From: an archaeon
Lineage (GTDB): Archaea > Aenigmatarchaeota > Aenigmatarchaeia > QMZP01 > JAFGSV01
Direction: 5' to 3'
Assembly (NCBI GenBank): GCA_028279705.1
Contig: JANQNF010000016.1
Coordinates: 1-64,000, forward strand
Length of the DNA: 64,000 bases
The notes under the pieces are model-generated. The model saw only the letters and a program-made list of their open reading frames with translations, was not told where the DNA came from and ran no database searches. Shown here piece by piece: positions 3,391 to 60,175 of the stretch (positions within the stretch are counted from its first letter, which is position 1; each line of letters starts with the position of its first letter). Position numbers and translations under genes: made by a program.

Positions 3391-3393
3391 AAC

Positions 3394-4488
3394 CTACCTT
3401 TTATCTGTGGACGAGATGCGCTGGAATTTCTCATCCATGGTGGCGAATGAGCACAGCGCACGAAGCGTAGGCTCAATCTTTTCAATGTCAGCTTCGTCAG
3501 TTAGACGATGGAACACCAAGAACTTATTGCCATTTTCTTTCATCGCAGCAATAAAATCTTGATATTCGAAGTTTTCGTAGTACCGTTCCCAGTCTCCGAT
3601 ACGGAGAATAGTATCGAACCCAACTACGATAGTGCTATTGTTTAGCCAGCGAGCTTTGTCGCAGAATCTTGCGTTGTTTGAAACCGCAATCCACTGTACG
3701 GGCTTAAACCCATCAATGGCTCCGACTAACTTTAGATATCTCTCCTGAAATTGAAGAATATCTAGGTCTGCTTTGTCCGCGTTTCGTACGCTCAATTCCA
3801 ACATGACCGACTGGCCGGTAATCTCGTGCGCTTTCTGGGCCATGGCTGCGTGGCCGTCGTGCCACGGATTGAACGACCCCGGGAAAAGAACTACGGGAGC
3901 TAAATCCTTTGGTAGTGCCACGGGTACGAATGAACCGTCGTCAGGTCGTGTGAGATTCATGCGAGAACTGCGTGAATCGAACATTTCCCAAATCAGCGGA
4001 CTAGCTTCGATGTACTGCTTTGTATCGTTGAGCTTATTCATTAGACCCAACACTTCACCTAAAGCTAGGTAGATGTAAGAAGTAACAATCTCTTCTTGCT
4101 CTTCTCTGTAGTAGTCATCGCTGAACTCCCTAGTGTAGTAGAATAGAGAGTTTGTACCGCGAATGGCAATGTGGAAGAAATGGCGGCGACCTTCCCGCTC
4201 GGGACCAGCCTTACGCAGAGTAGCTGTGACACCTACGCCGTAGTCGTTTGAGTCGCAGAGTCGATATGCTTTATCTGCAAGAAGCAAAGCGGCCTCCCGA
4301 GAACAATACTTCTCAGGCTGGCCCGCAAAGCAGTCGAATAGCTCAGAAGCATATGGAACCACAGCGCCATTGAAGACGCTACTAGCGCCACCGGGTGCTA
4401 AAAAGCTATCGATGAACTTAGTGCCGCCTCCTGTAATTGCTACAGAAAACTTCTTACCAGCTTCAATGATTTGTTCGCGCAGATTCAT
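3394..4488 (-). CDS. bifunctional PncC/CinA-C-like domain + NMN adenylyltransferase
   Basis: 364 aa; N-terminal VAITGGG...GASSVFNGAVVPYASE resembles CinA-C/PncC (AESCTGG...GFVTYSNE); C-terminal LFPGSFNPWHDGH is the nucleotidyltransferase (H/T)xGH motif of NMNAT. Confidence 0.75.
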   Translation of the reverse strand: MNLREQIIEAGKKFSVAITGGGTKFIDSFLAPGGASSVFNGAVVPYASELFDCFAGQPEKYCSREAALLLADKAYRLCDSNDYGVGVTATLRKAGPEREGRRHFFHIAIRGTNSLFYYTREFSDDYYREEQEEIVTSYIYLALGEVLGLMNKLNDTKQYIEASPLIWEMFDSRSSRMNLTRPDDGSFVPVALPKDLAPVVLFPGSFNPWHDGHAAMAQKAHEITGQSVMLELSVRNADKADLDILQFQERYLKLVGAIDGFKPVQWIAVSNNARFCDKARWLNNSTIVVGFDTILRIGDWERYYENFEYQDFIAAMKENGNKFLVFHRLTDEADIEKIEPTLRALCSFATMDEKFQRISSTDKR

Positions 4489-4909: not shown

Positions 4910-4985
4910 TGGTGGCGGGGGTGGGACTCGAACCCACGACCTTCAGCGTATGAGGCTGACGAGCTACCAACTGCTCCACCCCGCG
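4910..4985 (-). tRNA. tRNA-Met (CAT), initiator-like
   Basis: 76 nt cloverleaf on minus strand; anticodon loop CUCAUAC; 5' half CGCGGGGUGGAGCAG identical to E. coli tRNA-fMet; unpaired C1:C72; encoded CCA. Confidence 0.8.
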
Positions 4986-5560: not shown

Positions 5561-5953
5561 TGGTGGAGGTGCCGGGAATCGAACCCGGGTGCTGCATAAG
5601 TGTCGGGGTAGGCTCTACACGTTTATCAGGGTCTTTCACACTAACGCAGTTTGGTATACCCTGCAAACTCACTTCGTCGTCCTTAACGTGGACCCATTCG
5701 CCGGTCTATTTCCCGGTGCCATCTGTCTACTTCCAGCGTCACCCGTATTTCTTTTACCTAGGTGATACAGGATACCTAGCGTCGGAACCTTTAGGCTGCG
5801 ACGAGAGCAGGGGTGCCGAGGAGTGCCTCAGCGTCAGCCATGCTCAAAGAGTTGGGAATGCCAACTATTGGTTTAGTCCGTTTTAAGGTAGCCTCGGACC
5901 AACTACCACGTGCTCCTACTTCGTCTTCTTACCAGTCGATACCTTTCACCCCC
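5561..5953 (-). ncRNA. ssrA: tmRNA (SsrA)
   Basis: minus-strand RNA starting GGGGGUGAAAGGUAUCGAC and ending GGUUCGAUUCCCGGCACCUCCACCA (tRNA-like domain); internal tag reading frame GCU GAC ... GUC GCA GCC UAA giving ADAEALLGTPALVAA. Confidence 0.8.
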
Positions 5954-22518: not shown

Positions 22519-23034
22519 TAAAGATAGACGATAAGCCGGGTTCTGTCGTGGACAGTCATTAATCTAGGACGCACGTTGCCGTACGCCTCAAGCGGCCTCG
22601 CCTTGCACCTACTAGAAGTTTACCTAGCTGCCTGTGTCACCACAAGCACTGGTGGTCTCTTACACCACCCTTTCACCCTTACCTGAGCCAGTTCACTAAA
22701 CGTCGCCATCTTCTCGACCACTTGAATCGAATGGCTCGTCCAACAATCTGTTCTCCACGTCCTGTAAAAAGGCTCATAGGCGGTCTACTCTCTGTTGCAC
22801 TTGTCCTATCCTCACGGACGGTGGCCGTTAACCACTAGCTTTTCTGTCGTCTCAATTGCAACATCACAATCCAGAAACATACGGCGAGTATGTGGTGATT
22901 TCCCACATGGCCTTCTCCGAAGAAAAGAATTGCAAAGCCAACTAGCCAAAAGATTGTGTCTCGCATAAAAGACGACTCCGGTGCCCGGACTTTCCTCTTG
23001 GGTGTGTCTCCCAAGCGACTGTCTATCTATCTTT
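22519..23034 (-). ncRNA. rnpB: RNase P RNA (bacterial type A, rnpB-like)
   Basis: minus-strand RNA contains GAGGAAAGUCCGGGCACC, GUGCAACAGAGAGUAGACCGCCUAUGAGC, CAGGUAAGGGUGAAAGGGUGGUGUAAGAGACCACC and GACUGUCCACGACAGAACCCGGCUUAUCG, near-identical to E. coli M1 RNA conserved regions; 5' AGAUAGAUAGAC pairs with 3' GUCUAUCU (P1); about 500-nt ORF-free stretch. Confidence 0.8.
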
Positions 23035-37747: not shown

Positions 37748-37784
37748 AGTCGCCTCTATTTATACCCCTTGAGGTCTAGTAGAC

Positions 37785-37822
37785 AAAAAAAGGGGAACCC
37801 GCCTTGCGGCGGGCTCCCTGAG
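37785..37822 (-). terminator. rho-independent terminator
   Basis: GAGCCCGCC-GCAA-GGCGGGUUCC then CCUUUUUUUGUCUACUAGAC on minus strand. Confidence 0.6.
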
Positions 37823-37839: not shown

Positions 37840-38772
37840 CTAGCTCTCGACCGTCTCCTCCTCGACCTCGGCCTCGTCGGCCTCGGACGGGTCGGGCTCG
37901 CGGGAGAGCACCTCGCCGCCGCGCTGGTCCTGCTCCTCGATGTTCGAGGTGCCGCGGTCCTTCGCGCGGTCCAGCCGGGCCTGCTCGGCCTCCAGCTTGC
38001 GGGCCTCCGCCGCTTCGACCTCGCACTCCGCGAGCGTGACGGCCATGTCGCCTCGGAGGTCCGAGATGACGCCGTCGAGGTTGTCGCAGAAGTCCGCGAT
38101 GACCTCGCTCTTGAGGTGCTCGTTGTCCGTGCGGAGCTTGGCGACCACCTTGGCCAGCTCACCCGGCCTCTTTTCGAGGTTCTCGGGGTTGCCGAGCACG
38201 CGCATGAGGGACGCACCCACCTTGGGGTTCACGTCGCCGCGCTGGTTGAGCGCCTTGATTTCCGCGATGGAGAGCGTGGCCCAGTGCCTCTCGTTGCCCT
38301 CCTTGTCGACGGCGATGATACCGTCCATGTCCGCGCGGAAGGGCGTGTCCTCCGTGCGAACGAGACGACCCCAGCCCGCGTTGAGGCGGCCCGGCGTGTA
38401 GAGGGGACCCTTGGTCTGGGCACCCTCGTGCTCCTCGCCCGTGACGAGGAAGTCGTCCCAGATGGCGAGGATGACCGGGGAGGCCTTCCCGCCGTGCAGG
38501 GTCGAGGCGAACGTGAACGCCGGGTTGAGGTAGCTCTTGGCGAGCGTGCCCTTCTCCCCGAAGCCCGCGATGATGAGGCCGTTCTTCATGGCCGCCATCA
38601 GGCCTCGCGGTGCCTGCTTGTCCCCGTCCCGATGAGCCTCCAGCTCGTCGTAGACGTACGAGATGAGGTCACGGAAAGCGACCTGCGCCTCGTTCTCGCC
38701 CTTGGCGAACCCGTCACGGATGAGGGTGACGCGCTCCTCGTTGGGGGACCAGTTGGTGAAATCCTTCATGGA
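37840..38772 (-). CDS. hypothetical protein (very high-GC island, acidic C-terminal tail)
   Basis: start set at MKDFTNWSP; GC far above flanks; antisense ORFs judged spurious. Confidence 0.6.
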   Translation of the reverse strand, partial: SMKDFTNWSPNEERVTLIRDGFAKGENEAQVAFRDLISYVYDELEAHRDGDKQAPRGLMAAMKNGLIIAGFGEKGTLAKSYLNPAFTFASTLHGGKASPVILAIWDDFLVTGEEHEGAQTKGPLYTPGRLNAGWGRLVRTEDTPFRADMDGIIAVDKEGNERHWATLSIAEIKALNQRGDVNPKVGASLMRVLGNPENLEKRPGELAKVVAKLRTDNEHLKSEVIADFCDNLDGVISDLRGDMAVTLAECEVEAAEARKLEAEQARLDRAKDRGTSNIEEQDQRGGEVLSREPDPSEADEAEVEEETVES

Positions 38773-38925
38773 ATTTCCTCTATGCTTAGACCAACTGATG
38801 AGGTTTCTGACCGTTCGTACGCGCGGAAGGAGTCGAACGCTCCTCGATTGCCGCACACACGCAACGCGCCTCTAGCTCAGTCGGCTGTCGGCAAGTTTCG
38901 TCTAAATTTAGATGGAGTGACGTCT

Positions 38926-39079
38926 CCTTGAGGTGGGCCGCAACCTTCAGGTGGGCTCTCACCTTGAGGTTCCCCGGTACCTTCAGGTGGACTGCTACCT
39001 TGAGGTGGCGTCCTACCTTCACAAAGCCCGAACCTCGCGTCCGGGTTGACCTTCGAGTGGTGACCTTCAGAGTAGGGAA
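38926..39079. repeat. tandem array of about 8 imperfect 18-bp repeats (CCTTSAGGTGG core)
   Basis: units CCTTGAGGTGGGCCGCAA / CCTTCAGGTGGGCTCTCA / CCTTGAGGTTCCCCGGTA / CCTTCAGGTGGACTGCTA / CCTTGAGGTGGCGTCCTA then degenerate units; ORFs across it translate to HLKV or TFRW repeats and are artefacts. Confidence 0.8.
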
Positions 39080-39357
39080 CATTTCCGTTGGAAGTATAGC
39101 AAGCGCCGTGCCAACTATATATTGCGCTTTGAGGTAGCAATAACCACAATATCTTGTATGCCTAGCGTCGTACAGTATGTCATGGCGGCAAACGGTCTAT
39201 GTCATTTCAGCAGAGCGGTCATAAGTCTATATCTGACAAGCACTTACGTCGGTGTGAGGTGTTTGTCATTTCGGCATGGTCCTCGGTCATTCCACCTAGA
39301 GGTCGTATGCAGCCTCAAGGTCCGGCAATCGGTGTGCCAATTGCTCATTCACAAAGT

Positions 39358-39395
39358 ATGCCATATGGTTTTTTTGTAGCCTCATGAGACAGTGA
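39358..39395 (+). repeat. conserved intergenic element (short variant)
   Basis: AGTATGCCATATGG...CATGAGACAG. Confidence 0.4.
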
Positions 39396-39484
39396 CCTCA
39401 TACAGCCTTGGAAGGTGAAACTTTGACCGGAAGGTGGGACTTTGGGAAGGCCTATCATAAATTCTCGAAAAGTCAAATTATAAA

Positions 39485-39530
39485 AGTATGCCAATGGGAG
39501 CAAATGACTCAAGATGAGACGTGCCAATAT
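39485..39530 (+). repeat. conserved intergenic element copy A
   Basis: AGTATGCCAATGGG...GATGAGACGTGCC followed by CCTCAAGGT motifs. Confidence 0.45.
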
Positions 39531-39766
39531 GACACGCCTCAAGGTCGGGCTTGGTGTGTATGTGGTATGTGTCCTCAAGGTGCGGCGGGCGGTGGCCTCG
39601 TTGAACAAAGCCACCTCTACCCTACGTGTGATTGTCCTTGATGCGGTCAAGTTCCTCGATAAGGTCTTGTAGCTCGAACTGGTAGCCACCTCTGATATAG
39701 ATGGCGCAATCTTCTAGGGCTTCCTTGGCTTTTTGGAAGGCCCGTTCCTTAGCTCTTTCTTCCATG

Positions 39767-39979
39767 TTATTTTACCTCAATGACGTCGTCGCGCCAAGTG
39801 ATGAAGTAGATTTCCCCTGTTTCCTTGTCGAACATATCTAGGTTGCGGGTTAGCTTCTCCTCTCCGCGAGCTGCCCGCACCCTATTAAGTGCGAAGGTAC
39901 CTATGACTTCGTTCTCAAACCAGAATTTCTGGAGAGGCGGGCGCACGTGCCAAACGAAGGGTAGGCTTAGCATTGTCAT
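39767..39979 (-). CDS. hypothetical protein
   Basis: 70 aa. Confidence 0.45.
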   Translation of the reverse strand: MTMLSLPFVWHVRPPLQKFWFENEVIGTFALNRVRAARGEEKLTRNLDMFDKETGEIYFITWRDDVIEVK

Positions 39980-40278
39980 GCGGCCTCTCCTGCCTCGAAC
40001 GTGACCGCCTGTACGTCCACAACGATATCCTCAGTCTCGTCGGGAAACTCGCTGATGTGGAGGTAGTGGAAACCATCCTCGTCGTCGCGTGTGTGACTCA
40101 CCGGAAGGGTCATCCACCCTTGGAACTTGCGAATGATGAAGGAGTCGGGCTTGCCCTTGGTAAGCCACTGGAGAACGACTAGGTACCTCAGCAGGCGCTT
40201 CTCGGCTGCCCTCTTATCCTTCAGGAGACCTTCGCGGGCCTCGTTGATTTTCTTCAGTAGAGCGGGTCGAATCTTCAT
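39976..40278 (-). CDS. hypothetical protein
   Basis: 100 aa. Confidence 0.5.
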   Translation of the reverse strand: MKIRPALLKKINEAREGLLKDKRAAEKRLLRYLVVLQWLTKGKPDSFIIRKFQGWMTLPVSHTRDDEDGFHYLHISEFPDETEDIVVDVQAVTFEAGEAA

Positions 40279-40511
40279 ATCTGCACCTTCGCCAGCTCCA
40301 TAAGCTGACCCGTGTGTGTGACCTTGGAAACAAAGAGGACGGCCAAGGGCTCACGTCCTCCAAGCAACATCTTGACGTGTACCTCAATGGACCAGCCTAG
40401 GTAGCTGAAGCCAAACGGGTGATGCGGTCTGTCTGAGGTGAAGAACCGTTCCTTGGCTATTTCAGCACAAGCCATTCTAGCCTCGTGGAGAGGGTCCCTA
40501 GGTATCGGCAT
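40275..40511 (-). CDS. hypothetical protein
   Basis: 78 aa. Confidence 0.45.
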   Translation of the reverse strand: MPIPRDPLHEARMACAEIAKERFFTSDRPHHPFGFSYLGWSIEVHVKMLLGGREPLAVLFVSKVTHTGQLMELAKVQI

Positions 40512-40851
40512 CGGTCTGCTCCTTCGGAATCTCCACCTGAAACGAGCGTGTCACTTCGAGGTTACGCTTGGGCAGCATCAAACGGCGTGCCCTCTTCTCA
40601 CCCGGTAGCTTGGGGTTCAGCGTCACCTTCTCCTTGGTGTGCTCGTCTAGGCGGTAGACGTTCAGTATGAGTTCGGCCTCGTAGTGTTCGAGCTTGTCGG
40701 TCACCTTGCCGCGGATAAGCTCAGCCACGAATACGCCTTCGTGGTGTCTAAATCCGCAAGCTGTCTGTTCCTTGAGGACCTGTAGGTTAAACCTACTAAT
40801 GGCCTTCTCGACCAGCTCTTGATTGAGGTCGGCTGTTACTTCGTATGACAT
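40498..40851 (-). CDS. hypothetical protein
   Basis: 117 aa. Confidence 0.5.
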   Translation of the reverse strand: MSYEVTADLNQELVEKAISRFNLQVLKEQTACGFRHHEGVFVAELIRGKVTDKLEHYEAELILNVYRLDEHTKEKVTLNPKLPGEKRARRLMLPKRNLEVTRSFQVEIPKEQTDADT

Positions 40852-40947
40852 AAGTTCACCTATATAGAGGATATCACGACTTGAGCCGAAAGCAAGTTGT
40901 ATTTTTTAGACATCTCATAATGAGCCATGCCAAACTTGAAATAAATA

Positions 40948-41000
40948 AGTATGCCAAAGAGGGCGTTTGGCTCAACTTGGTACGTATTATTATGAGACCC
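40948..41000 (+). repeat. conserved intergenic element copy B
   Basis: AGTATGCCAAAGAGG...TACGTATTATTATGAGACCC followed by CCTCAAGGT x2 and CCTTGAGG. Confidence 0.45.
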
Positions 41001-41150
41001 CTCAAGGTGCTTGGTGTGTTGGTCTTATGGGCCTCAAGGTCAGGCGGGCGCTCGCCTCATTGAACGGTACACCCTTGAGGATGCGCAAGGCGCACGAAAA
41101 AAGGGGAGGCTACGCGCCTCCCCGAGCAACAAAGGAGTCAGCACCTAGGT

Positions 41151-41432
41151 CTAGAGGTCGCGGACCATATGGCCTTGCCAATCGCCAGCGACGTAGACAA
41201 AGAAGTTGAGGCGGTCGTCGATGAGTCGTACCTCCACCTGAACCTCCTCGTCGTCGTCGAACAGCGGGAACGTCGTGTCCTCCGCGTAGCCGTTCGGGCA
41301 CCTCTCCTTGTAGCGCCTCCACAGGCACACCTCTAGTAGCTTCTGCTTGAGCCTGTCGCCATCGGCAAAAGCCTCACGGATGCGGTCGATAGCCTCTCTG
41401 CTCAGAGGCGGCGTGTCATTCTCAATTCCCAT
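41151..41432 (-). CDS. hypothetical protein
   Basis: 93 aa, GC-rich. Confidence 0.5.
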   Translation of the reverse strand: MGIENDTPPLSREAIDRIREAFADGDRLKQKLLEVCLWRRYKERCPNGYAEDTTFPLFDDDEEVQVEVRLIDDRLNFFVYVAGDWQGHMVRDL

Positions 41433-41709
41433 AGCTCAACTCCTCCGCAGCCTGACGCCGCGCCTTCTCGTAATACATAGCTTCCGCCATGTACCTCATA
41501 ATGAGCATGGCAGCGTGGTCTCGGATATCCTCGCACGGGTCATCGATGAAGGTCTCAGCCTGCCTCATCATATATTCGGCCCGTAGTTTTGCATGGTAGG
41601 ACAGGGAGGCCCGCCGAATGGCGAGCTTCCTCCAGTCTACGCCTCTATCGAAGTTAACCCGTCGCATTAGCTGTGCTCCGGGCAAGTGAGGGAGAGGCCA
41701 CACATGCAT
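41422..41709 (-). CDS. hypothetical protein
   Basis: 95 aa. Confidence 0.45.
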   Translation of the reverse strand: MHVWPLPHLPGAQLMRRVNFDRGVDWRKLAIRRASLSYHAKLRAEYMMRQAETFIDDPCEDIRDHAAMLIMRYMAEAMYYEKARRQAAEELSYGN

Positions 41710-41934
41710 CTCGATTCGGGAAGGTTCTCACGCGGGAGGGAGAATACCGCTCCCACATTGAAGCCTTCGACTTGCGTGTGAGGCACGGCGATGATGTATC
41801 GCGCGAAGTCCTCAAGGTGCGGCCATTCCTGAATCGCACCCTTGATAGCCTCTTCCGGGGTTTCTGCGCTAACGTCTGTTTGGTAGAGTAGCTCCCGGTC
41901 GGAGGTGATGCGGTAGATGCTGAAACGTACCACC
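41667..41934 (-). CDS. hypothetical protein (GTG start)
   Basis: GTG preceded by AAGGAGGTG SD at 5-nt spacing. Confidence 0.45.
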
Positions 41935-42132
41935 CTACACCTCCTTGTCCGCGAACGGGTACTTGTGCGCCACCTTGAAGTAGGCGTCCATGAGCTTGGC
42001 AGGCTGGAACCCGAGGGTACGGTTGAGGTCCCGCACGTATTCGACCAGCTTAAGCTCAGTCGCCTCAGAGGCGGTACCGGCAAGTATCTGCCGCCGCCAG
42101 TTGAGCAAGGTTGATTCGGAAGGCTGTGACAT
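41935..42132 (-). CDS. hypothetical protein
   Basis: 65 aa. Confidence 0.5.
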   Translation of the reverse strand: MSQPSESTLLNWRRQILAGTASEATELKLVEYVRDLNRTLGFQPAKLMDAYFKVAHKYPFADKEV

Positions 42133-42221
42133 TTTGACTCCTATTCGTTGCTACTAAGAGTATAGCCGGGATTGAGCGGGAAGCCACCCAATCCCGGTTT
42201 TCGTGGTCTCAGTATGAGACG

Positions 42222-42485
42222 CTAGCTCTTGGCGACCTTCCCGCGCTTGACTTCGACGGTCAGCGGGAGGTGGATGGTCTCCGTGTAGAGGCCAATCTTG
42301 TCCTTGAACGCCTTGCCCAAGTACACCTTGCCCGTCTCCTCCTCGCGCACGACGACCAGCTTGGAGAAGTAAGACTTCCCCGCCGCCTTGCTCTCTTCGA
42401 GGACGTCGGCCACCAGCGTCAGAACCTCCTCGGGCTTCGTACCCTTCTTCACCGTGAGCGCCTTGCCGTTAGTCTGCGTAGCCAT
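42222..42485 (-). CDS. small conserved protein, copy 1 of a duplicated gene
   Basis: 87 aa, about 80% identical to product of 44168..44422. Confidence 0.55.
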   Translation of the reverse strand: MATQTNGKALTVKKGTKPEEVLTLVADVLEESKAAGKSYFSKLVVVREEETGKVYLGKAFKDKIGLYTETIHLPLTVEVKRGKVAKS

Positions 42486-42696
42486 TTCTGACTCCTGTTG
42501 TTCGCTAGGCCCTATTGCCTATTCACTACAAGGATACCAGCTTGGGGTAAGAAAGCAAAAACATTCTGAGGCTTGGTGTGTATCGGTGTATCGTTTCGGG
42601 ACGGGCCGAAGGCACATAGATTAAACCTAGAGGTTGCATTCGGCTGAGCCGTCTTCCTCAAGGCAAGGTGGGCCTCAGCGCATACCATATGGCTGT

Positions 42697-42750
42697 GCGT
42701 TGTCAAGTTTCTAATAGTATGCCAATGGACCAGAATGGCGCAAAATGATA
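42697..42750 (+). repeat. conserved intergenic element copy C
   Basis: AGTATGCCAATGGACC...GATACGTCTCATTATGAGACAG. Confidence 0.45.
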
Positions 42751-43112
42751 CGTCTCATTATGAGACAGCAAGGGCAAAAAAAAGTGGAGGCGACTGCGTT
42801 TCTGGGAGGTCGCTAGCGCGTGTGATTCCTCTGCGCCAACAGGCTGCCTCGTCTCTGCGTTCCGAGGTTCGACAAGCCTTTTCTCTAATCGCCTAGGTAC
42901 CTTCAGCGATTCTTGAGGATGCCGATTCGTGTTGAGAAACGGAGCGAGGGAGCCGTAGGCCGTTGCGCCTTGACGTCCGCTGTGTCCGTCGCCTCCGTTT
43001 GTCTCCCGGAGACACTAGTAGAATACCATGATTCCCCTGATATGCAAGCAAAAAGCAAAAAATATTTCAGCCTTGGGCATACCACACAGTAGCCGGGTAG
43101 TCAAAATATAAT

Positions 43113-43165
43113 ACTATGCCAAACGGGCCGTTTGCACCAAAATAGTACGTATCAAAATGAGACAC
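43113..43165 (+). repeat. conserved intergenic element copy D
   Basis: ACTATGCCAAACGGG...AGTACGTATCAAAATGAGACAC, preceded by GCATACCACACAGT. Confidence 0.45.
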
Positions 43166-43363
43166 TGAGGCGGCGGCGTATCATTTAGATACACACTACC
43201 TCTTGGCCTTCTCGCGCGTGATAGCCCAGTATGCCTCGTTAAGATAGCCTACGCCTAGACGTTTGTTATCGGCCATCCACTTGGCTAGAGCCTTGCGCTG
43301 ATTCTTTTGACCCTTGATTTTCATTGTATTAAAGTAGGCCGGGAGGCGAGTCCCACGTTGGGA

Positions 43364-43702
43364 CTACCTTGTATTCCTCCCGGAGCCTACCGAAGAGTTC
43401 AAAGAAGTGGGGGAGGCGGGAGCCTCCCCCGTGCGTACGTTCTCAACACAGCGGGAAGAATCGGAATTGGAAAGGGAATCGGAACAACGACCTTCTTGCG
43501 CAGCCTCGTATTCGTCGTACGCGGTACGAATCGGGCGCGCACCTCCAGCTTTGCCGCATCTGCGGCAGAAAGACAACACCTCGGTCGGAAAGCCCAAGGC
43601 GTCGGCAAGCAGCACAACCCAACGCCTTCTGACGTTGACCTTGCACTGACAGCCGTCGCACCTTGTGTGCGTCCGCGTCCGAATGAATGTTGTGTAGTCC
43701 AT
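43364..43702 (-). CDS. hypothetical zinc-ribbon protein
   Basis: 112 aa; CDGCQC...CRRCG; GC-rich region with many overlapping frames. Confidence 0.35.
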   Translation of the reverse strand: MDYTTFIRTRTHTRCDGCQCKVNVRRRWVVLLADALGFPTEVLSFCRRCGKAGGARPIRTAYDEYEAAQEGRCSDSLSNSDSSRCVENVRTGEAPASPTSLNSSVGSGRNTR

Positions 43703-43706
43703 TTCT

Positions 43707-44006
43707 CTAGTCCACCCGTAGTCTACCCGTCATTGTCCGCGTGGGCAAGCCTGCCGGATAATCTTTTGCGTCCGTCCGTCTCATCATGATACAGGTCCCG
43801 TCCAGCAAGGTGTACTCTGCCTTGATTACGAAGGGTACCTCGATGGGCTTGCCAGCCTCTCGGGTCGGCCTTCGCTTCTGTCGGCATACGCTCCGGTATT
43901 TCATGGGTAAGCCTTTCGTGCTTACCCCCCTAAACCTCACACCTATACTATCATCTAAAGTTAAATCCGCAAGCCTAGTTTGATATAGTATCCCATAGTG
44001 GGACAT
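43707..44006 (-). CDS. hypothetical protein
   Basis: 99 aa; start immediately downstream (minus sense) of element copy E. Confidence 0.45.
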   Translation of the reverse strand: MSHYGILYQTRLADLTLDDSIGVRFRGVSTKGLPMKYRSVCRQKRRPTREAGKPIEVPFVIKAEYTLLDGTCIMMRRTDAKDYPAGLPTRTMTGRLRVD

Positions 44007-44024
44007 GCCATGCTTGAATTATAT

Positions 44025-44105
44025 TACTGTGCCAATTGGCCCGAATGCCCCAAAATAGAACGTCTCAATATGGTACACCGGCCGGGCGTCTCAGTATGAG
44101 ACACA
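44025..44105 (+). repeat. conserved intergenic element copy E
   Basis: ACTGTGCCAATTGGC...GAACGTCTCAATATGG...CAGTATGAGACAC. Confidence 0.45.
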
Positions 44106-44110
44106 CACGA

Positions 44111-44147
44111 TAAAAGAAAAGGGCCGGGTACTCTTGACCCGGCCCGA
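44111..44147 (-). terminator. rho-independent terminator
   Basis: GGGCCGGGUCAAGAGUACCCGGCCC followed by UUUUCUUUU on minus strand, just downstream of 44168..44422. Confidence 0.55.
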
Positions 44148-44167
44148 TTCTGTGGTAGGCGCGTGGG

Positions 44168-44422
44168 CTAGGACTTGGCAATCTTGCCCCGCTTGACCTC
44201 GACCTGCAACGGCAGGTGCATGGCCTCGACGTACAGCCCGATGCGGTCCTTGAACGCCTTCCCGAGGTAGACCTTGCCGGTCTCCTCTTCGCGGACGACG
44301 ACCTGCTTCGAGTAGTAGGACTTGCCCTCCGCTTTGGACTTTTCGAGTTCGTCCGCAACCAGAGTGAGAACCGCTTCCGGCTTGGTTCCCTTTTTGACAG
44401 TGAGTGCTTTTCCGTTGGCCAT
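44168..44422 (-). CDS. small conserved protein, copy 2 of a duplicated gene
   Basis: start set at MANGKALTVKK with TTAGGAG SD; paralog of 42222..42485. Confidence 0.55.
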   Translation of the reverse strand: MANGKALTVKKGTKPEAVLTLVADELEKSKAEGKSYYSKQVVVREEETGKVYLGKAFKDRIGLYVEAMHLPLQVEVKRGKIAKS

Positions 44423-44548
44423 TGTGCTAACTCCTAAGTTTGGGTTACTTGCTTCACCTACATAGTATCCCGTAGTGCTAGGCAAGCAATTGGTTTTTTT
44501 GGTTTGTTTGTGAGGCGTATCAAGGTGAGACTGGGCGTGCATACCACA

Positions 44549-44627
44549 CAGTGTGCCAATAGCCAATTATATTAGTGTGCCAATCAACCCTTTTGTATCA
44601 AGAATATACGTATCAATATGAGACACC
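44549..44627 (+). repeat. conserved intergenic element copy F
   Basis: GCATACCACACAGTGTGCCAATAGCC...AGTGTGCCAATCAACC...ATACGTATCAATATGAGACAC. Confidence 0.45.
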
Positions 44628-44765
44628 CGCGCGGCGGGCGAAGTGTCCAATAAACAGGACACCTCCCGCACTAGTATAGCCAAGCGTAGACAGTGTGTGC
44701 ATAGTAGCATACCGCACACAAGGCTACGATAGTCCAGAAGTTTTTGAAGATAAAGCGTAGCATTG

Positions 44766-45047
44766 TTAGACAATCCCTAGTGTGATGAGGTGCATGGTAG
44801 CAATGACAGTGTAGATACCCACTAGTGCGAGTGACCCATATCGAGCCATCTGCTTATGGCGATAGGCATACAGGAGAGTGATGCAGAATGAGACAAGGGC
44901 GATTTTGAGCCAAAAGAGATTCATAGGATTGCTATGCGCCATGTCTCGAAGGAGAACGTTCCCCTCTGAGACAATGCCTAGGTAGAGGCCGATGGCGGTA
45001 GCGTAGCCGTCCCACGCATTGAGAAGAAGAAGAATCAAGTGTCTCAT
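44766..45047 (-). CDS. membrane protein
   Basis: internal Met start MRHLILLLL; three TM helices. Confidence 0.45.
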   Translation of the reverse strand: MRHLILLLLNAWDGYATAIGLYLGIVSEGNVLLRDMAHSNPMNLFWLKIALVSFCITLLYAYRHKQMARYGSLALVGIYTVIATMHLITLGIV

Positions 45048-45048
45048 T

Positions 45049-45195
45049 TTAAGCCTCGCTCTGGTAGTAGTCCCAATCCGAGTCAGTCTGTTTCCGCTCG
45101 GGTTCGTCCGCGTGGCATTCGTGGCAGATGCCCGAAGCCTTCTCATCCTGATACAGTTCGCAGCCGCAAACGTCGCATTCGTAGTTTTCCACCAT
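45049..45195 (-). CDS. small zinc-ribbon protein (48 aa)
   Basis: MVENYECDVCGCELYQDEKASGICHECHADEPE...; not in the 60-aa-cutoff ORF track; coordinates approximate. Confidence 0.35.
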   Translation of the reverse strand: MVENYECDVCGCELYQDEKASGICHECHADEPERKQTDSDWDYYQSEA

Positions 45196-45204
45196 TGTCT
45201 CCTT

Positions 45205-45561
45205 CTAAGACACCTGCTCGTTAGTGCGAATGTCCATAATGTAGTGATAGGTGCGGTTTTCGTGGTACTCCGCGCCTCCGCGACCCGTCGCAACCTCCGT
45301 GCCGATGCCGGTCCGATGGTCGCGCTTGCTGCGCTCGACCGTCTCAAGGCGGGACAGTTTCTCTCGCGCCTCTTCGATGGTCCGCGCCCAGCCTACGGTA
45401 CGCTTGCTTGTCCCATATCGAGAATCGACTGCCACGATATGATAGGGTGAAGACAGTTTGCCCGTACCTCGGCCCGTTGCGAAGTTTGCACGTTCCGTCT
45501 TATTGTGAGACAGCACGATTCCCTGCGAGGCAAGAAATTCTTTTGCAATCCGACTAGCCAT
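45205..45561 (-). CDS. hypothetical protein
   Basis: internal Met start MASRIAKEF; last minus-strand gene before strand switch. Confidence 0.5.
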   Translation of the reverse strand: MASRIAKEFLASQGIVLSHNKTERANFATGRGTGKLSSPYHIVAVDSRYGTSKRTVGWARTIEEAREKLSRLETVERSKRDHRTGIGTEVATGRGGAEYHENRTYHYIMDIRTNEQVS

Positions 45562-45702
45562 TAGCCAATCCCCCACGCGATAGCGACAGACAGCGCGAAA
45601 CCGAAAGTTGCGGCGAGCGCAACCAAGTAGGACAAGCGGTTGATTCTCATTGCACCTATATAGTACCTCATGGGCGCAAGTAGGCAAGCGGGGAAATTAT
45701 TT

Positions 45703-45770
45703 TTGTATGCCATTCGCGCGTTTTGTTTCAAAATGAGCATAATGCTTTTTTCTCATAACGAGACACACCG
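45703..45770 (+). repeat. conserved intergenic element copy G in the divergent region
   Basis: TGTATGCCATTCGCGCG...TTTCAAAATGAGCAT...ATAACGAGACACACC upstream of the plus-strand late genes. Confidence 0.4.
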
Positions 45771-45942: not shown

Positions 45943-46428
45943 ATGAACGAAAATGAACCAACACCAAGCGGCATTGACACCGTAGAAATCTCGGAAGAGC
46001 TTGCGCGCATGAAAGCGCAGAAGCACAAGTTCAGCTATTATGACGCAGACGATATAGCACAGGAAATCTGGCTGTCTGTTAATAAGGCCGCTAAGAAATT
46101 CGACGGTGACCGCGTGAAAAAGGGTAAGCGCCCGCTATCATTCTTCAATGTCGCTTCAGAGAATGCGCTAAAGAATCTAAAGCGCGACAATAAGATTGCA
46201 GACAACGTGAATCTCGGTGACACGCCGGTACAGGAGGTTGACCATACCATAGCTGGGGAAATGCGTGCCCGCGAGTTGCGCCAGTTCATTCTAGACAAGC
46301 TGCCAGATAAGTTGAAAGAGCCATTTATAAGGCTGGTAGACTATGGTGGCGAAGGCGTCTCGCAGTATATTAAGACCAAGATTCGTCATGCAGTCGCAGA
46401 GATTTTAGAGGAATTCAATGGCGAATGA
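45943..46428 (+). CDS. sigma-70 family-like transcription factor (regions 2 and 4)
   Basis: start set at MNENEPT; DDIAQEIWLSVNKAAKKFD resembles sigma region 2; C-terminal LDKLPDKLKEPFIRLVDYGGEGVSQYIKTKIRHAV resembles region 4 HTH; first gene of plus-strand module. Confidence 0.5.
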   Translation: MNENEPTPSGIDTVEISEELARMKAQKHKFSYYDADDIAQEIWLSVNKAAKKFDGDRVKKGKRPLSFFNVASENALKNLKRDNKIADNVNLGDTPVQEVDHTIAGEMRARELRQFILDKLPDKLKEPFIRLVDYGGEGVSQYIKTKIRHAVAEILEEFNGE

Positions 46429-50301: not shown

Positions 50302-50760
50302 ATGAGCAAAAAGAAGACTTTCACTATTATCCAAGATACCCGAGAAAAAAAGCCGTGGACTTTTGAGGCTACTGGGTCTGTCGAGGATGTGAGGGTCACT
50401 AAACTCGACACTGGTGATTACTCCATTGAAGGAATGGAAGAAATCTTTATGCTTGAAAGGAAGGCATCAGTTGATGAGTTGTTCGTTAACTTGGGGGTTC
50501 AATGGGCTCGCTTCGAACGAGAGATGGAAAGGGCCAAACCCTATAAATATAAGTACCTCGTCATCGAGGCGACCCTCCCCCAACTTTACAAAGGTTCAAA
50601 GTATTCCAAGATGAGCGGTAAGTTCATCATGGGTAGACTATTGTACATCCAACACAAATATGGAGTAGTGCCTTTGATTGTTGGTAAAAGCCCCTATACT
50701 ACAATGCTGATTGTTCAATTGATGAAGTCAGCAGTCTCAGCCGAAAATGCCGATAGTTAA
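50302..50760 (+). CDS. ERCC4-type (XPF/Mus81/Hef-like) nuclease domain protein
   Basis: 152 aa; IIQDTREKKPW and GDYSIEGMEEIFMLERKASVDEL match the ERCC4 GDx(n)ERKxxxD catalytic signature. Confidence 0.6.
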   Translation: MSKKKTFTIIQDTREKKPWTFEATGSVEDVRVTKLDTGDYSIEGMEEIFMLERKASVDELFVNLGVQWARFEREMERAKPYKYKYLVIEATLPQLYKGSKYSKMSGKFIMGRLLYIQHKYGVVPLIVGKSPYTTMLIVQLMKSAVSAENADS

Positions 50761-52615
50761 TCCCGACTTTCTAGGTTACGAAGCGATGCTAAGCGAGCTT
50801 TACGGAGCACGCTTGGATGATGCGCCACGTACTTCTTACATTGGTTCTGATGCAGTAAGCTTAGGAACCATGACACGCAAAGAAGCACTAGCGCGTGATT
50901 TTCGTACGAACCTAGCACTAACAGCAAAGTACATTCTTAACATCACTTTGTTGCCATTCCAGCTAAGCGTTTTGGAAATGCTTTGGAATAAGCGATTCCC
51001 GTATATGGTAATGACTCGTGGTGGTGGTAAGACTTTCATTCTAGCGGTATACTCCTGCCTACGTGCTTTGCTAACACCGGGTTCTAAGATTGTTCTTGTT
51101 GGTGCGAACTTCCGTCAGTCTCAATTGATTTTCGAATACATCGAGACCATTTACAATAGCGCACCTATGTTCCGCCAGTGCTGCGTTGGTCGTGGTCCAT
51201 CCAAGCAGCCAGCAAAGTGGATTCTCAAAGTTGGCACTTCAACTATCACCGCTGTACCCCTAGGTCACGATGGTAGTACAATTCGTGGTCTTCGTGCAAC
51301 ATGCATCATCGCTGATGAGTTCGCATCTATCCCTGAAGAAATCTTTCAGGTTGTTGTTCGTGGTTTCGCAGCCGTATCTAAAGACCCAGCCAAGAATGTA
51401 ATCGATAAGTGGAAGCACAGGCACCTGAAAGACAAAGGTATCGACACAGAAGAAATTGACACCCAAGGTAACCAAATTATTCTAAGTGGTACCGCATACT
51501 ACACTTTCAATCATTTCTACAAGACCAAAGAACGATACGAAGAGATTATTGGTAACAAGGTTCAAAGTGATGTAGAAAACGAAAATGGAGTTTTAGAAAG
51601 AGTCGATTACAGGGACTATGGAATTATTGAAATTCCATACCAAGCAATGCCGCCCGGCTTTATGGATGTAACCCAGATTGGTCAGGCTAAGGCTACTATG
51701 CATCCTATCTTCTTTGGGATGGAGTATGAAGCTAAGTTCGCCGGTACTACTGGTGGTTTCTTCCCAATGATTGACATTGAGAATGCAACTGCTGGTTCTA
51801 CTCTAAAAGACGACACTGGCGCGGCTAAGCTCGTGAACGGCGAAGCTATCACTAACCCCTATCATGCTATTGAACTAGAAGCTCAGGCTGACGGTATCTA
51901 TGTTATGGGTGCAGACCCAGCGCGTGATACAGATAACTTCGCGGTTTGCGTCATCAAGATTACTAAAGACGGTCACTACAACGTGGTCTATGCTGACGCA
52001 TGGAACCGCAAAGAGTGGGGATACTCCGTTCGTCGTATTAGGGAGCTAATCAAGCGTTTCAACATTCAGCGCATCAGTATTGACCGTGGTGGTGGTGGTA
52101 CAACCATCGAAGACCTACTAAAAGACAAGAGGTATATGGAGCCGGGCGAACTGCCCATCTTCAATATTGAAAAGCAGGACGAAGAGGGAGACTGGTTTGT
52201 TGGTCAAGAGATTTTACAGGTTCAAGACTTCTCAGAATATACTTGGTATCGTAGCGCCAATTATTCTCTCCAAGGAGAAATTCACCACAGGAAAATTATG
52301 TTCCCAGCCAATTATATCGACGAAGCAGTTTATCATAAATTCACTTTCAGGGAAGACGAGATTAATCGCTGTTTTGAGAACGTTCAGGCGATGAGGCTGG
52401 AACTAGCTCAAATTGAGCGCACCGTAAAGGGCTCGAATCGTGAGCACTTCGATTTGCCTGAAGACCAGATTAAACAGGCTAAAGAAAAAGGCGTTATTCA
52501 CCGTAAAGACCGCTACTCGGCACTCCTACTGGCTGCCCATGCCGCCCGAGACTTCCACGGATACGGTGAATGGAAAGACAAGGTGGAATACATCCCCGGA
52601 TTCTGGTTGCAGTAA
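50747..52615 (+). CDS. terL: terminase large subunit
   Basis: 622 aa; Walker A MVMTRGGGKTF, Walker B-like IIADEF, C-terminal nuclease-size domain; precedes portal. Confidence 0.8.
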   Translation: MPIVNPDFLGYEAMLSELYGARLDDAPRTSYIGSDAVSLGTMTRKEALARDFRTNLALTAKYILNITLLPFQLSVLEMLWNKRFPYMVMTRGGGKTFILAVYSCLRALLTPGSKIVLVGANFRQSQLIFEYIETIYNSAPMFRQCCVGRGPSKQPAKWILKVGTSTITAVPLGHDGSTIRGLRATCIIADEFASIPEEIFQVVVRGFAAVSKDPAKNVIDKWKHRHLKDKGIDTEEIDTQGNQIILSGTAYYTFNHFYKTKERYEEIIGNKVQSDVENENGVLERVDYRDYGIIEIPYQAMPPGFMDVTQIGQAKATMHPIFFGMEYEAKFAGTTGGFFPMIDIENATAGSTLKDDTGAAKLVNGEAITNPYHAIELEAQADGIYVMGADPARDTDNFAVCVIKITKDGHYNVVYADAWNRKEWGYSVRRIRELIKRFNIQRISIDRGGGGTTIEDLLKDKRYMEPGELPIFNIEKQDEEGDWFVGQEILQVQDFSEYTWYRSANYSLQGEIHHRKIMFPANYIDEAVYHKFTFREDEINRCFENVQAMRLELAQIERTVKGSNREHFDLPEDQIKQAKEKGVIHRKDRYSALLLAAHAARDFHGYGEWKDKVEYIPGFWLQ

Positions 52616-59848: not shown

Positions 59849-60175
59849 ATGGAAATGAGCATTTTGTCCAAAAAGCGCAGTTATACGCGAGTCACAGTCA
59901 GACAAGTCATGCGACTGTATAATCAAGGCATGAACTTTAGTCAGATAGCGGAACATCTCGGGTGTGCGCGAAATACAGTACGAGCCAAAGTTCGAGAATA
60001 TATTGAAACGACTGGTAAGCCCGTACCGACGAGAACCAAACCCGGATTAGGATTCCGAGATATCACAAAAGTTCTTCGATGGTACAAAGCGGGGAAGAAA
60101 GTTTCTGATATAGCGGAACACTTTAATGTAACTGCGAGTTGCATATATAAGATTCTTCAGAAGTACGGGGATTAA
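59849..60175 (+). CDS. tandem helix-turn-helix DNA-binding protein
   Basis: 108 aa; two repeats of GMNFSQIAEHLGCARNTVRAKV / KVSDIAEHFNVTASCIYKIL. Confidence 0.5.
   Translation: MEMSILSKKRSYTRVTVRQVMRLYNQGMNFSQIAEHLGCARNTVRAKVREYIETTGKPVPTRTKPGLGFRDITKVLRWYKAGKKVSDIAEHFNVTASCIYKILQKYGD

What the first reader, a model, noticed from the sequence alone, without database searches (positions are those of the whole stretch)
38926..41080. Iteron-like 18-bp tandem array and dispersed CCTYRAGG motif cluster
Five to eight head-to-tail 18-bp units (CCTTGAGGTGGnnnnnnn alternating with CCTTCAGGTGG) lie just downstream (minus sense upstream) of the high-GC gene 37840..38772. The same 8-mer or its reverse complement (CCTCAAGGT) recurs at about 39537, 39566, 41001, 41036 and 41074. 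Arrays of short direct repeats with half-site symmetry (CCT..AGG) are typical of replication-origin iterons, partition (parS-like) sites or operators for a phage DNA-binding protein.
Basis: seen in the sequence. Interest (0 to 1): 0.65.

Follow-up and report, generated by a model that had tools for sequence, protein, structure and literature searches.

The report
Phage operator array in control region
The 18-bp repeats are real and most likely form a cluster of docking sites for a gene-regulating protein, placed in a conserved control region of a very unusual large phage, rather than a replication origin.

Summary
Five canonical 18-bp units lie at 38926-39015, with a sixth in register and two remnants, and CCTYRAGG recurs at 39537, 39573, 41000, 41032 and 41073. 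The motif gives 16 matches in 64 kb against 3.9 expected, and 13 of them fall within 5 kb.

The window is a phage with no close relative among deposited phage genomes. Seven related metagenomic lineages keep the same layout in a 0.85-1.1 kb gene-free gap. In gene direction this is a sigma54-type -24/-12 element, then 2-8 ACCT-YR-AGGT units, a TCTAAATTTAGA palindrome, a covarying structured RNA leader, and a conserved 309-aa gene.

The motif is non-coding (29 of 32 sites in relatives). Array cores are 87% identical against 37% for spacers. The motif also sits at fixed distances from three promoter-like elements: 50 bp, 21 bp, and across a start site. It flips orientation between duplicated modules and occurs in terminator-to-promoter spacers.

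This points to a dyad operator for a DNA-binding transcription regulator, with the array gating transcription into the 309-aa gene. Origin hallmarks are absent: no AT-rich block, no DnaA boxes, no skew inflection and no initiator gene. The binding protein is unidentified and nothing has been tested experimentally.

The parts
38926..39015 (.). Five canonical 18-bp units. The core is A-CCTT-S-AGGT-GG on the + strand, which reads CC-ACCT-S-AAGG-T in gene direction, and the centre alternates G and C.
   Evidence: Core identity is 0.87 against 0.37 for the spacers.
39016..39033 (.). Sixth unit in the same 18-bp register, half degenerate (CCTTCACA; TGTGAAGG in gene direction).
39050..39071 (.). Two degenerate remnants, CCTTCGAG (39050-39057) and CCTTCAGA (39064-39071), out of register with the main array.
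38901..38912 (.). Perfect palindrome TCTAAATTTAGA. The last array unit starts 21 bp upstream of it.
   Evidence: TCTA-W4-TAGA: 8 matches against 0.04 expected. (21-bp distance in 5 of 6 genomes).
39099..39113 (-). Sigma54-type -24/-12 element P1 (TGGCACGGCGCTTGC), 13 bp or more upstream of the array in gene direction.
   Evidence: 2 exact matches against 0.09 expected. Conserved in 6 genomes with a variable spacer sequence of fixed length.
39325..39339 (-). Sigma54-type -24/-12 element P2 (TGGCACACCGATTGC).
   Evidence: Present in 4 of 6 genomes and duplicated in L002.
39295..39320 (.). Pair of sites 18 bp apart directly after P2: CCTTGAGG (39313-39320 in gene direction) and CCTCTAGG (39295-39302). 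They would span about -7 to +19 of a P2 start site.
39485..39494 (-). TTGGCATACT promoter-like core of module A (reads as an extended -10, TGnCAYAST).
   Evidence: 9 matches against 0.47 expected, all on the minus strand.
39537..39580 (.). Two CCTTGAGG sites (39537-39544 and 39573-39580) starting 50 and 86 bp upstream of the module A core.
40948..40957 (-). TTGGCATACT promoter-like core of module B, upstream of the operon 40851 to 39622.
41000..41080 (.). Three sites: 41000-41007 and 41032-41039 start 50 and 82 bp upstream of the module B core. 41073-41080 lies 16 nt after the T-run of the terminator at 41103-41123.
38790..38885 (-). Conserved structured RNA in the 5' leader of the 309-aa gene, a long hairpin of three stacked helices.
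   Evidence: Of 36 pairs, 13 show compensatory changes. 97.6% of cells are paired against about 40% in slid controls, and 0 of 500 shuffles reach the observed values. No Rfam match.
37840..38769 (-). Conserved 309-aa gene of unknown function, 67% GC, the gene that follows the control region.
37767..37774 (.). Single CCTCAAGG site (gene direction) between the terminator of the 309-aa gene (37793-37818) and the start of the 202-aa gene (37747).

Best explanation
The array is a cluster of operator sites for a sequence-specific double-stranded-DNA-binding transcription regulator. That regulator recognises the short dyad ACCT-YR-AGGT (core CCT-N2-AGG).

Such sites occur singly or as pairs 18 bp apart. 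They sit at three fixed positions relative to three promoter-like elements inside a conserved 0.85-1.1 kb control region, which separates an early operon from a conserved 309-aa gene:
1. 50 bp upstream of TTGGCAYACT early-type promoter cores.
2. Across the presumptive start site of a sigma54-type -24/-12 element (P2).
3. As a tandem array that begins about 100 bp downstream of a second sigma54-type element (P1). Its last unit starts 21 bp upstream of the palindrome TCTAAATTTAGA, which precedes the gene's structured RNA leader.

In this phage the proximal cluster has expanded to six in-register units plus two remnants. I propose that cooperative occupancy coats roughly 110-150 bp and gates transcription into the 309-aa gene. 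The most likely mode is repression or a roadblock to RNA polymerase coming from P1, P2 and the early promoters. The less likely mode is control of initiation at the palindrome.

Shown here: the motif, its spacing, its conservation, its non-coding location, selection on the cores, the fixed positions, the orientation flips, and sites in terminator-to-promoter spacers.

Inferred: that a protein binds, which protein it is, and whether the effect is positive or negative.
For: - Enrichment and clustering.
- Seven related lineages carry 2-8 units at the same place upstream of the homologous gene, with variable copy number and spacing of 16, 17, 18 or 30 bp. This rules out coding.
- Array cores are 87% identical against 37% for spacers, so the cores are under selection and the array is not a recent duplication.
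- 29 of 32 sites in relatives are non-coding (P about 2e-8).
- Information content sits in CCT/AGG with an A preference at position -1. The centre is mostly a pyrimidine-purine step (TG 19, CA 18, CG 6).
- Fixed positions: the site starts 50-51 bp before TTGGCAYACT in 7 modules from 5 genomes, 21 bp before the palindrome in 5 of 6, and 18-21 bp after the start of P2 in 5 copies. At P2 a second unit follows 18 bp later in all 5 genomes. Naive chance probabilities are 1e-9 to 1e-12.
- The site is inverted at the equivalent position in L252, and between the two near-identical P2 modules of L002.
- Four sites lie 9-16 nt after the T-run of an intrinsic terminator and before the next promoter-like element or gene, where RNA should be scarce.
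- The array as RNA folds no better than shuffled sequence (z = -0.42).
Against: - No binding protein was identified. None of the small early proteins matches a DNA-binding family. The only clear helix-turn-helix protein in the window (59849-60175) lies 20 kb away among structural genes.
- The half-site centres are only 6 bp apart, which is unusual for helix-turn-helix dimers.
- The 18-bp spacing is not in helical phase.
- In all seven lineages the array units read CCTCAAGG in gene direction, whereas the upstream sites mostly read CCTTGAGG. That position-specific orientation would also fit an RNA-level signal.
- The array probably lies in transcribed DNA, because the leader just downstream has a strand-specific conserved RNA structure.
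- The spacing statistics treat related genomes as independent.
- The host is unknown and there are no expression or binding data.
Confidence: 0.55

Rival explanations
1. The array is an RNA-level element. It is transcribed from P1 or upstream promoters as part of a 5' leader of about 300 nt. The repeated CCUCAAGG units then bind an RNA-binding protein, acting as a translational operator or a protein sponge. Alternatively they pair with GAGG-type ribosome-binding sequences to control translation or stability of the 309-aa mRNA.
For: - The leader immediately downstream is a conserved, strand-specific structured RNA, so this DNA is transcribed in gene direction.
- Array units have the same orientation in all seven lineages.
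- Each unit contains CCUC (like the anti-Shine-Dalgarno sequence) and AAGG(A/U).
- The proximal unit keeps a fixed distance to the palindrome.
Against: - The same motif occurs upstream of promoter-like cores and just after intrinsic terminators, where little RNA is expected.
- It flips orientation at equivalent positions.
- The array RNA is no more stable than shuffled sequence.
- No Rfam family matches.
- Dyad symmetry has no obvious use in single-stranded RNA, because a 2-nt loop cannot form.
Confidence: 0.15
2. The array is a set of replication-origin iterons. An initiator protein binds the 18-bp dyad repeats, as the lambda O protein does at ori-lambda. Together with transcription from the nearby promoters, this opens the DNA for replication.
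For: - 18-bp tandem repeats with internal dyad symmetry resemble the four dyad-symmetric O-binding iterons of lambda (established knowledge).
- The array sits in the largest gene-free gap of this part of the genome, which is rich in promoter-like elements.
Against: - No 40-bp block of at least 80% AT lies nearby; the maximum in 38.7-39.7 kb is 75%, and that is 400 bp away.
- No DnaA box within one mismatch occurs in 38-41 kb.
- Cumulative GC skew is flat from 36 to 45 kb. Its minimum lies at the divergent transcription point at 44-45.5 kb.
- The neighbouring protein has no initiator-like fold or family.
- Copy number falls to two in some lineages.
- The same motif is tied to promoter-like elements elsewhere, which origins do not explain.
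Confidence: 0.1
3. The array is a downstream enhancer, or anti-enhancer, for a sigma54-dependent promoter. Host sigma54 RNA polymerase sits at P1 and P2, and an AAA+ activator or its antagonist assembles on the CCT-YR-AGG sites.
For: - TGGCAC-N5-TTGC occurs exactly twice in 64 kb against 0.09 expected. Both copies are in this gap and on the gene strand.
- P1 is conserved in 6 genomes as two blocks, with a spacer of fixed length and variable sequence.
- Motif sites flank both elements.
Against: - No sigma54 or AAA+ activator gene was found among the window ORFs scanned.
- The host is unknown.
- The phage tmRNA tag ends in ALVAA. From memory this resembles cyanobacterial tags, and cyanobacteria lack sigma54.
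- Known activator sites are longer inverted repeats and usually lie upstream.
- No literature precedent was found.
Confidence: 0.1
4. The array is a partition (centromere) site or a packaging (pac) recognition site, bound by a ParR/ParB-like protein or by the small terminase.
For: - Tandem short repeats with variable copy number are typical of plasmid and phage centromeres and of some pac sites (established knowledge).
- A tandem helix-turn-helix protein with a weak small-terminase-like hit is present at 59849-60175.
Against: - No partition ATPase or GTPase and no ParB was found in the window.
- The array is 12 kb from the large terminase gene, in a different transcription unit.
- The promoter-locked copies and the conserved link to the 309-aa gene's leader are not explained by either function.
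Confidence: 0.05

Closest known systems
Stoperators of Cluster A mycobacteriophages (L5, Bxb1 and relatives; PMC9283540, PMC6550527)
   Same: Many copies of one short repressor site are spread through short intergenic regions. Some lie downstream of promoters, where the bound protein blocks elongating RNA polymerase.
   Different: Stoperators are asymmetric 13-14 bp sites bound by a monomer, used in one orientation, and mostly occur singly. Here the site is a 10-bp dyad, occurs in both orientations, and forms pairs 18 bp apart and a tandem array. Those phages are temperate, and nothing here shows lysogeny.
Tandem operator or centromere arrays bound by ribbon-helix-helix proteins (omega repressor heptads of pSM19035, ParR-parC of R1 and pSK41, MetJ metboxes). 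Recalled from established knowledge and not tested here.
   Same: Short sites of about 7-10 bp are repeated head to tail in variable number and orientation near promoters, and are read cooperatively by small dimers. The close half-site spacing suits insertion of a beta-sheet into one major groove.
   Different: Those repeats are contiguous (7-11 bp period), whereas these cores are separated by non-conserved spacers (18-bp period). No ribbon-helix-helix protein was identified here.
Lambda origin iterons bound by the O protein (established knowledge)
   Same: About 18-19 bp tandem repeats, each with internal dyad symmetry.
   Different: Ori-lambda lies inside the initiator gene next to an AT-rich unwinding region. 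Here there is no AT-rich block and no initiator, and the same motif is tied to promoter-like elements at other places.
T4 middle promoters with a MotA box replacing the -35 element (established knowledge)
   Same: If TCTAAATTTAGA contains a -10-like TAAATT, the proximal CCTCAAGG would span about -35 to -28. That is an activator box in place of a -35 element.
   Different: The MotA box is a single asymmetric 9-bp site. No MotA or AsiA homologue was detected. The palindrome-like element also occurs directly before start codons, so it may not be a promoter.
Sigma54 (-24/-12) promoters with enhancer-binding proteins
   Same: P1 and P2 match TGGCAC-N5-TTGC exactly, on the coding strand upstream of a gene, and are conserved as two blocks.
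   Different: No activator or rpoN evidence exists and the host is unknown. The repeated sites lie downstream of, or over, the start site rather than 80-150 bp upstream, and they are shorter than known activator sites.

Membership tests
Replication-origin iterons | Tandem direct repeats of about 17-22 bp | tested here: met
   Period of 18 bp, with 5-6 units in register.
Replication-origin iterons | Adjacent AT-rich DNA-unwinding element | tested here: not met
   No 40-bp window of at least 80% AT lies within 38.7-39.7 kb. The three such blocks in the window are at 46.7, 52.6 and 56.4 kb.
Replication-origin iterons | Initiator (Rep or O-like) gene in cis, or host DnaA boxes | tested here: not met
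Replication-origin iterons | Strand-composition switch or replication initiation at the site | tested here: inconclusive
   Cumulative GC skew is flat at 36-45 kb, with its minimum at 44-45.5 kb, where gene orientation also switches. Marker frequency cannot be tested with these tools.
Partition centromere (parS, parC, tubC) | Repeat array next to genes for a partition NTPase and a centromere-binding protein | tested here: not met
   No ParA, ParM, TubZ or ParB family hit among the window ORFs scanned. Only 64 of about 176 kb were available.
Transcription-factor operator cluster | Short site with dyad symmetry, conserved half-sites and a tolerant centre | tested here: met
   CCT/AGG is fixed by the search pattern. 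There is an A preference at position -1, and the centre is mainly TG, CA or CG. The perfect palindrome CCTCGAGG occurs in relatives.
Transcription-factor operator cluster | Fixed position relative to promoter elements, conserved across genomes | tested here: met
   Offsets of 50-51 bp, 21 bp and 18-21 bp. That the anchor elements are promoters is itself inferred.
Transcription-factor operator cluster | Non-coding location with selection on the site rather than the spacer | tested here: met
   29 of 32 sites are non-coding. Core identity is 0.87 against 0.37 for spacers.
Transcription-factor operator cluster | A cognate DNA-binding protein | not testable with these tools
   No candidate was identified by family searches. 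Binding assays are needed.
Sigma54-dependent promoter | GG and GC doublets exactly 10 bp apart within TGGCAC-N5-TTGC | tested here: met
   39099-39113 and 39325-39339 on the minus strand are the only exact matches in 64 kb, against 0.09 expected. P1 is conserved in 6 genomes.
Sigma54-dependent promoter | Host encodes sigma54, and an AAA+ enhancer-binding activator is available | not testable with these tools
   The host is unknown. No activator or sigma54 was found among window ORFs.
Mycobacteriophage-type stoperators | Asymmetric 13-14 bp site used in a single orientation relative to transcription | tested here: not met
   The site is a dyad and occurs in both orientations at equivalent positions.
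Known RNA families (Rfam) | Match of the array or leader to a curated covariance model | tested here: not met
   Only a chance-level snoRNA hit (E = 0.64) in 38600-39750.

The most novel reading that the evidence does not exclude
The conserved gap is a sigma54-dependent switch in a lytic phage. Host sigma54 RNA polymerase is parked at the conserved -24/-12 elements P1 and P2. The CCT-YR-AGG sites, including the downstream 18-bp array, are where a phage-encoded activator or anti-activator assembles to time expression of the 309-aa gene. As far as my literature search shows, phage gene expression driven by sigma54 promoters has not been described.
Probability: 0.1. Interest if true: 0.8.

Novelty: new variant of a known kind. 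Interest (0 to 1): 0.45.

Why it matters
If the reading is right, this region is the main timing switch of a phage lineage with no characterised relatives. Its portal protein matches nothing among 50,697 phage records.

It gives a compact, testable regulatory code:
- one 10-bp dyad used at three fixed positions
- two other over-represented palindromes
- a sigma54-type promoter pair
- a new covarying RNA leader

Identifying the protein that reads the dyad would give a handle on early-to-middle gene control in such phages. It would also settle whether a phage can use sigma54-type promoters. By itself, an operator array is an ordinary kind of element.

Tried and rejected
1. An exact-pattern scan of viral contigs with two array units found one locus (L001). 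This is a chance match inside an unrelated proline-rich coding region.
2. Scans of viral, genome and metagenome collections with ATCTAAAWTTAGACGRAA returned hundreds of loci. Local tblastn showed none encodes the neighbouring protein, so the pattern was too AT-rich to be specific.
3. Protein-based and alignment-based searches of IMG/VR found no relatives. blastn against deposited phages found nothing.
5. Pfam and PHROG scans of about 25 small early proteins gave no DNA-binding candidate.
6. Structured RNA in the array was rejected: z = -0.42, and z = -1.09 for the whole leader.
7. Structured RNA between P2 and P1 was rejected for lack of net covariation.
8. Coding potential of the three ORFs overlapping the array was rejected. 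Relatives have 2-3 units with 16, 17 or 30-bp spacing, and no gene is called there.
9. Host identification failed using the terminase, portal and NAMPT proteins and using literature searches.
10. The single ACCTGAAGGT at 59627, upstream of the tandem helix-turn-helix gene, lies inside a coding region and was treated as chance.
Full report
**Observation**

The array exists as described. Tandem Repeats Finder reports period 18 (and 36) at 38926-39021. In 18-bp register there are five canonical units, a sixth half-degenerate unit at 39016, and two out-of-register remnants at 39050 and 39064. CCTYRAGG occurs 16 times in the window against 3.85 expected, with no shuffle reaching 16. CCTTSAGGT occurs 10 times against 0.91 expected.

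**Context**

The window is phage DNA. It carries a large terminase (50747-52615), NAMPT and NMNAT-like genes, an RNA ligase and a sigma-like gene. Genes run on the minus strand below about 45.65 kb and on the plus strand above about 45.9 kb. It has no DNA relative among 50,697 deposited phage records. Its terminase is only 25% identical to the nearest ones, and its portal protein matches nothing.

The array lies in an 850-bp gene-free gap. On one side is a small-gene operon (40851 to 39622). On the other is a 309-aa gene (37840..38769, minus strand) with no family or fold assignment.

**Relatives**

The 309-aa protein has an identical copy on a 175,863-bp NCBI contig and seven homologues at 54-63% identity. 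Their contigs (L002, L004, L007, L252, L253, L254, L255 and shorter copies) are syntenic on both sides. Where the sequence extends far enough, all have a gap of 0.9-1.1 kb upstream of the gene.

Read in gene direction, every genome shows the same order:
1. A two-block element TTGGCACGG-N4-TGCT.
2. About 100 bp further on, 2-8 units of ACCT-S/Y-R-AGGT.
3. The palindrome TCTAAATTTAGA.
4. A leader of about 120 nt.
5. The start codon.

Copy number and spacing differ between genomes: six units at 18 bp here, three at 18 bp in L002, two at 18 bp in L007, three at 16 and 17 bp in L252, and two at 30 bp in L004 and L253. Together with the absence of called genes there, this excludes a coding explanation for the three ORFs that overlap the array in the window.

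**Evidence that the units are functional sites**

Within the window's array the 11-bp cores are 87% identical, while the 6-bp spacers are 37% identical, close to random. The cores are therefore maintained by selection and are not left over from a recent duplication. In the relatives, 29 of 32 CCTYRAGG sites are non-coding although only 43% of that DNA is non-coding. A profile of 67 CCT-N2-AGG sites shows an A preference at position -1 and a centre that is mostly a pyrimidine-purine step (TG 19, CA 18, CG 6), with little else conserved. This describes a short dyad site.

**Fixed positions**

The motif is locked to three other conserved elements:
- It starts 50-51 bp upstream of TTGGCAYACT in seven modules from five genomes, including both window modules (cores at 39494 and 40957).
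- It starts 21 bp upstream of the palindrome in five of six genomes (17 bp in the L252/L254 lineage).
- It starts 18-21 bp after the start of a second TGGCAC-N5-TTGC element (P2) in five copies, and a second unit follows exactly 18 bp later in all five genomes.

So 18 bp is the basic spacing of a two-site unit, and the window's array is an expansion of it. Naive chance probabilities for these offsets are 1e-9 to 1e-12. These overstate significance because the genomes are related, but the surrounding intergenic DNA is otherwise poorly alignable.

**DNA or RNA?**

Several facts favour recognition of double-stranded DNA:
- The site is inverted at the equivalent -51 position in L252.
- The two nearly identical P2 modules of L002 carry CCTCAAGG and CCTTGAGG respectively at the same place.
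- Four sites lie 9-16 nt after the T-run of an intrinsic terminator and before the next promoter-like element or gene.
- The array folded as RNA is no more stable than shuffles (z = -0.42).

Against this, the array units read CCTCAAGG in gene direction in every lineage. In addition, the DNA just downstream is certainly transcribed. The leader (38790-38885, minus strand) forms a long hairpin with 36 pairs, 13 of them showing compensatory changes. 97.6% of cells are paired against about 40% when partners are slid, and no shuffle reaches the observed values. Its many G-U pairs tie the structure to the gene strand. I therefore keep an RNA-level role as the main rival.

**The promoter-like elements**

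TGGCAC-N5-TTGC, the textbook sigma54 -24/-12 consensus (established knowledge), occurs exactly twice in 64 kb against 0.09 expected. Both copies are in this gap and on the gene strand. P1 is conserved in six genomes as two invariant blocks separated by a spacer of fixed length and variable sequence. That is how a bipartite promoter should evolve.

Its dependence on sigma54 is untested. No activator or sigma54 gene is present among the window ORFs scanned, and the host is unknown. The phage tmRNA tag ends in ALVAA, which from memory resembles cyanobacterial tags; cyanobacteria lack sigma54.

TTGGCAYAST (9 matches against 0.47 expected, all on the minus strand) reads well as an extended -10 element (TG-n-CAYAST, with the key A and T invariant), preceded by a conserved TTTTG. 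I take these to be early promoters. TCTA-W4-TAGA (8 matches against 0.04 expected) recurs after terminators and 0-17 nt before start codons in the window and relatives. Variants carry an AAGGA centre. It may be a -10-like promoter element or a start-associated signal, and I could not decide between these.

**Origin and partition readings**

No block of at least 80% AT lies near the array, and no DnaA box within one mismatch occurs in 38-41 kb. Cumulative GC skew is flat from 36 to 45 kb, with its minimum at the divergent transcription point. No initiator, partition NTPase or ParB was detected. Phage origins need not have these hallmarks, so the reading is disfavoured rather than excluded. The promoter-locked copies elsewhere are not what an origin predicts.

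**Mechanism proposed**

A dimeric regulator reads ACCT-YR-AGGT. Pairs of sites 18 bp apart bind cooperatively.
- At P2 the pair covers the start site, which is a repressor position.
- At the early modules it sits at about -62 and -95 to -98 relative to the inferred start.
- In front of the 309-aa gene, the expanded array coats the 110-150 bp between P1 and the palindrome and leader.

The array would thereby gate entry of RNA polymerase into the gene. This works like mycobacteriophage stoperators (PMC9283540, PMC6550527) or the cooperative arrays read by ribbon-helix-helix proteins (established knowledge). Protein binding, the identity of the binder and the sign of regulation are all inferred.

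**Verdict**

The finding is a real, conserved, selected repeat array. It is best read as an operator cluster within a dense phage control region. The origin and partition readings are not supported. It is a new variant of a known kind. The most novel element is the conserved sigma54-type promoter pair, whose function remains to be tested.

Noticed in passing
window 22520-22891 (-), 5561-5953 (-), and tRNAs at 4910, 11979, 12651, 20382, 20462, 22070 (-): The phage carries a full-length bacterial class A RNase P RNA (171 bits, model positions 1-367). It also carries a tmRNA (88 bits; tag reads GIPNSLSMADAEALLGTPALVAA) and six tRNAs. tmRNAs are known in large phages (PMC7162821), but I found no report of a phage-encoded RNase P RNA.
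   Followed up: partly
window 38790-38885 (-); L002 4075-4171 and equivalents: A conserved structured RNA lies in the 5' leader of the 309-aa gene. It is a long hairpin of 36 pairs, 13 with compensatory changes, and 97.6% of cells are paired against about 40% in slid controls. It matches no Rfam family.
   Followed up: yes
window 36574, 36709, 36810, 37048, 37308, 38901 (+ coordinates); relatives L002 5842, 6016, 6096 and others: The palindrome TCTA-W4-TAGA gives 8 matches against 0.04 expected. It recurs just after terminators and 0-17 nt before start codons, sometimes containing the upstream gene's stop codon. Variants such as TCTAAGGATAGA hold a Shine-Dalgarno-like centre directly before the ATG, including at 38779-38790. 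It may be a promoter or a start-associated signal; this is unresolved.
   Followed up: partly
window 39506-45764, e.g. 42206, 42752, 44088 (exact copies): The 15-bp palindrome GTCTCA-N3-TGAGAC gives 21 matches within two mismatches against 3.1 expected, and 18 of them lie in 39.5-45.8 kb. It sits at a fixed place about 28-42 bp upstream of the TTGGCAYACT cores, so it is probably the operator of a second regulator.
   Followed up: partly
window 39416-39444; L002 about 3365-3395; L004 2415-2445 and 3075-3105; L253 255-285: A direct repeat of CAAAGTYSCAC occurs twice, 19-20 bp apart (40 bp in L007). It is conserved in five of the six control regions, between module A and the P2 module; L252 has only a diverged GATAGTCSCA pair there.
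   Followed up: no
window 37840-38769 and homologues in L002, L004, L007, L252, L253: The 309-aa gene is 66-68% GC in every lineage, while the surrounding phage DNA is 48-53% GC. The high GC is therefore a conserved property of this gene and not a sign of recent transfer.
   Followed up: partly
window 39591-39616, 44640-44665; L002 3045-3075; L007 1300-1325; L253 95-120: A hairpin with covarying stems and a TTCAA or TTTAT loop follows upstream genes. It is followed by CCGCCCRCC and then CCTTGAGG, and has no T-run. It may be an unusual terminator or a processing or antitermination signal.
   Followed up: no
window 42222-42485 (-) and 44168-44422 (-): Two paralogous genes of 84-87 aa each follow a promoter module. 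They have no family match.
   Followed up: no
window 45946-46428 (+): A sigma-like protein matching only sigma-70 region 2 is the first gene of the rightward structural arm. A TTGCAA-17-TATATA motif ends a few bases before its ATG, which suggests a near-leaderless mRNA.
   Followed up: no
L004 2660-3049: The control region of one relative carries an AT-rich insert. It encodes a frameshifted protein that looks like an HNH homing endonuclease, with CxxC motifs and a HHEDY motif in another frame.
   Followed up: partly
It sits among structural genes and has a weak small-terminase-like hit. Nothing links it to the motif.
   Followed up: partly
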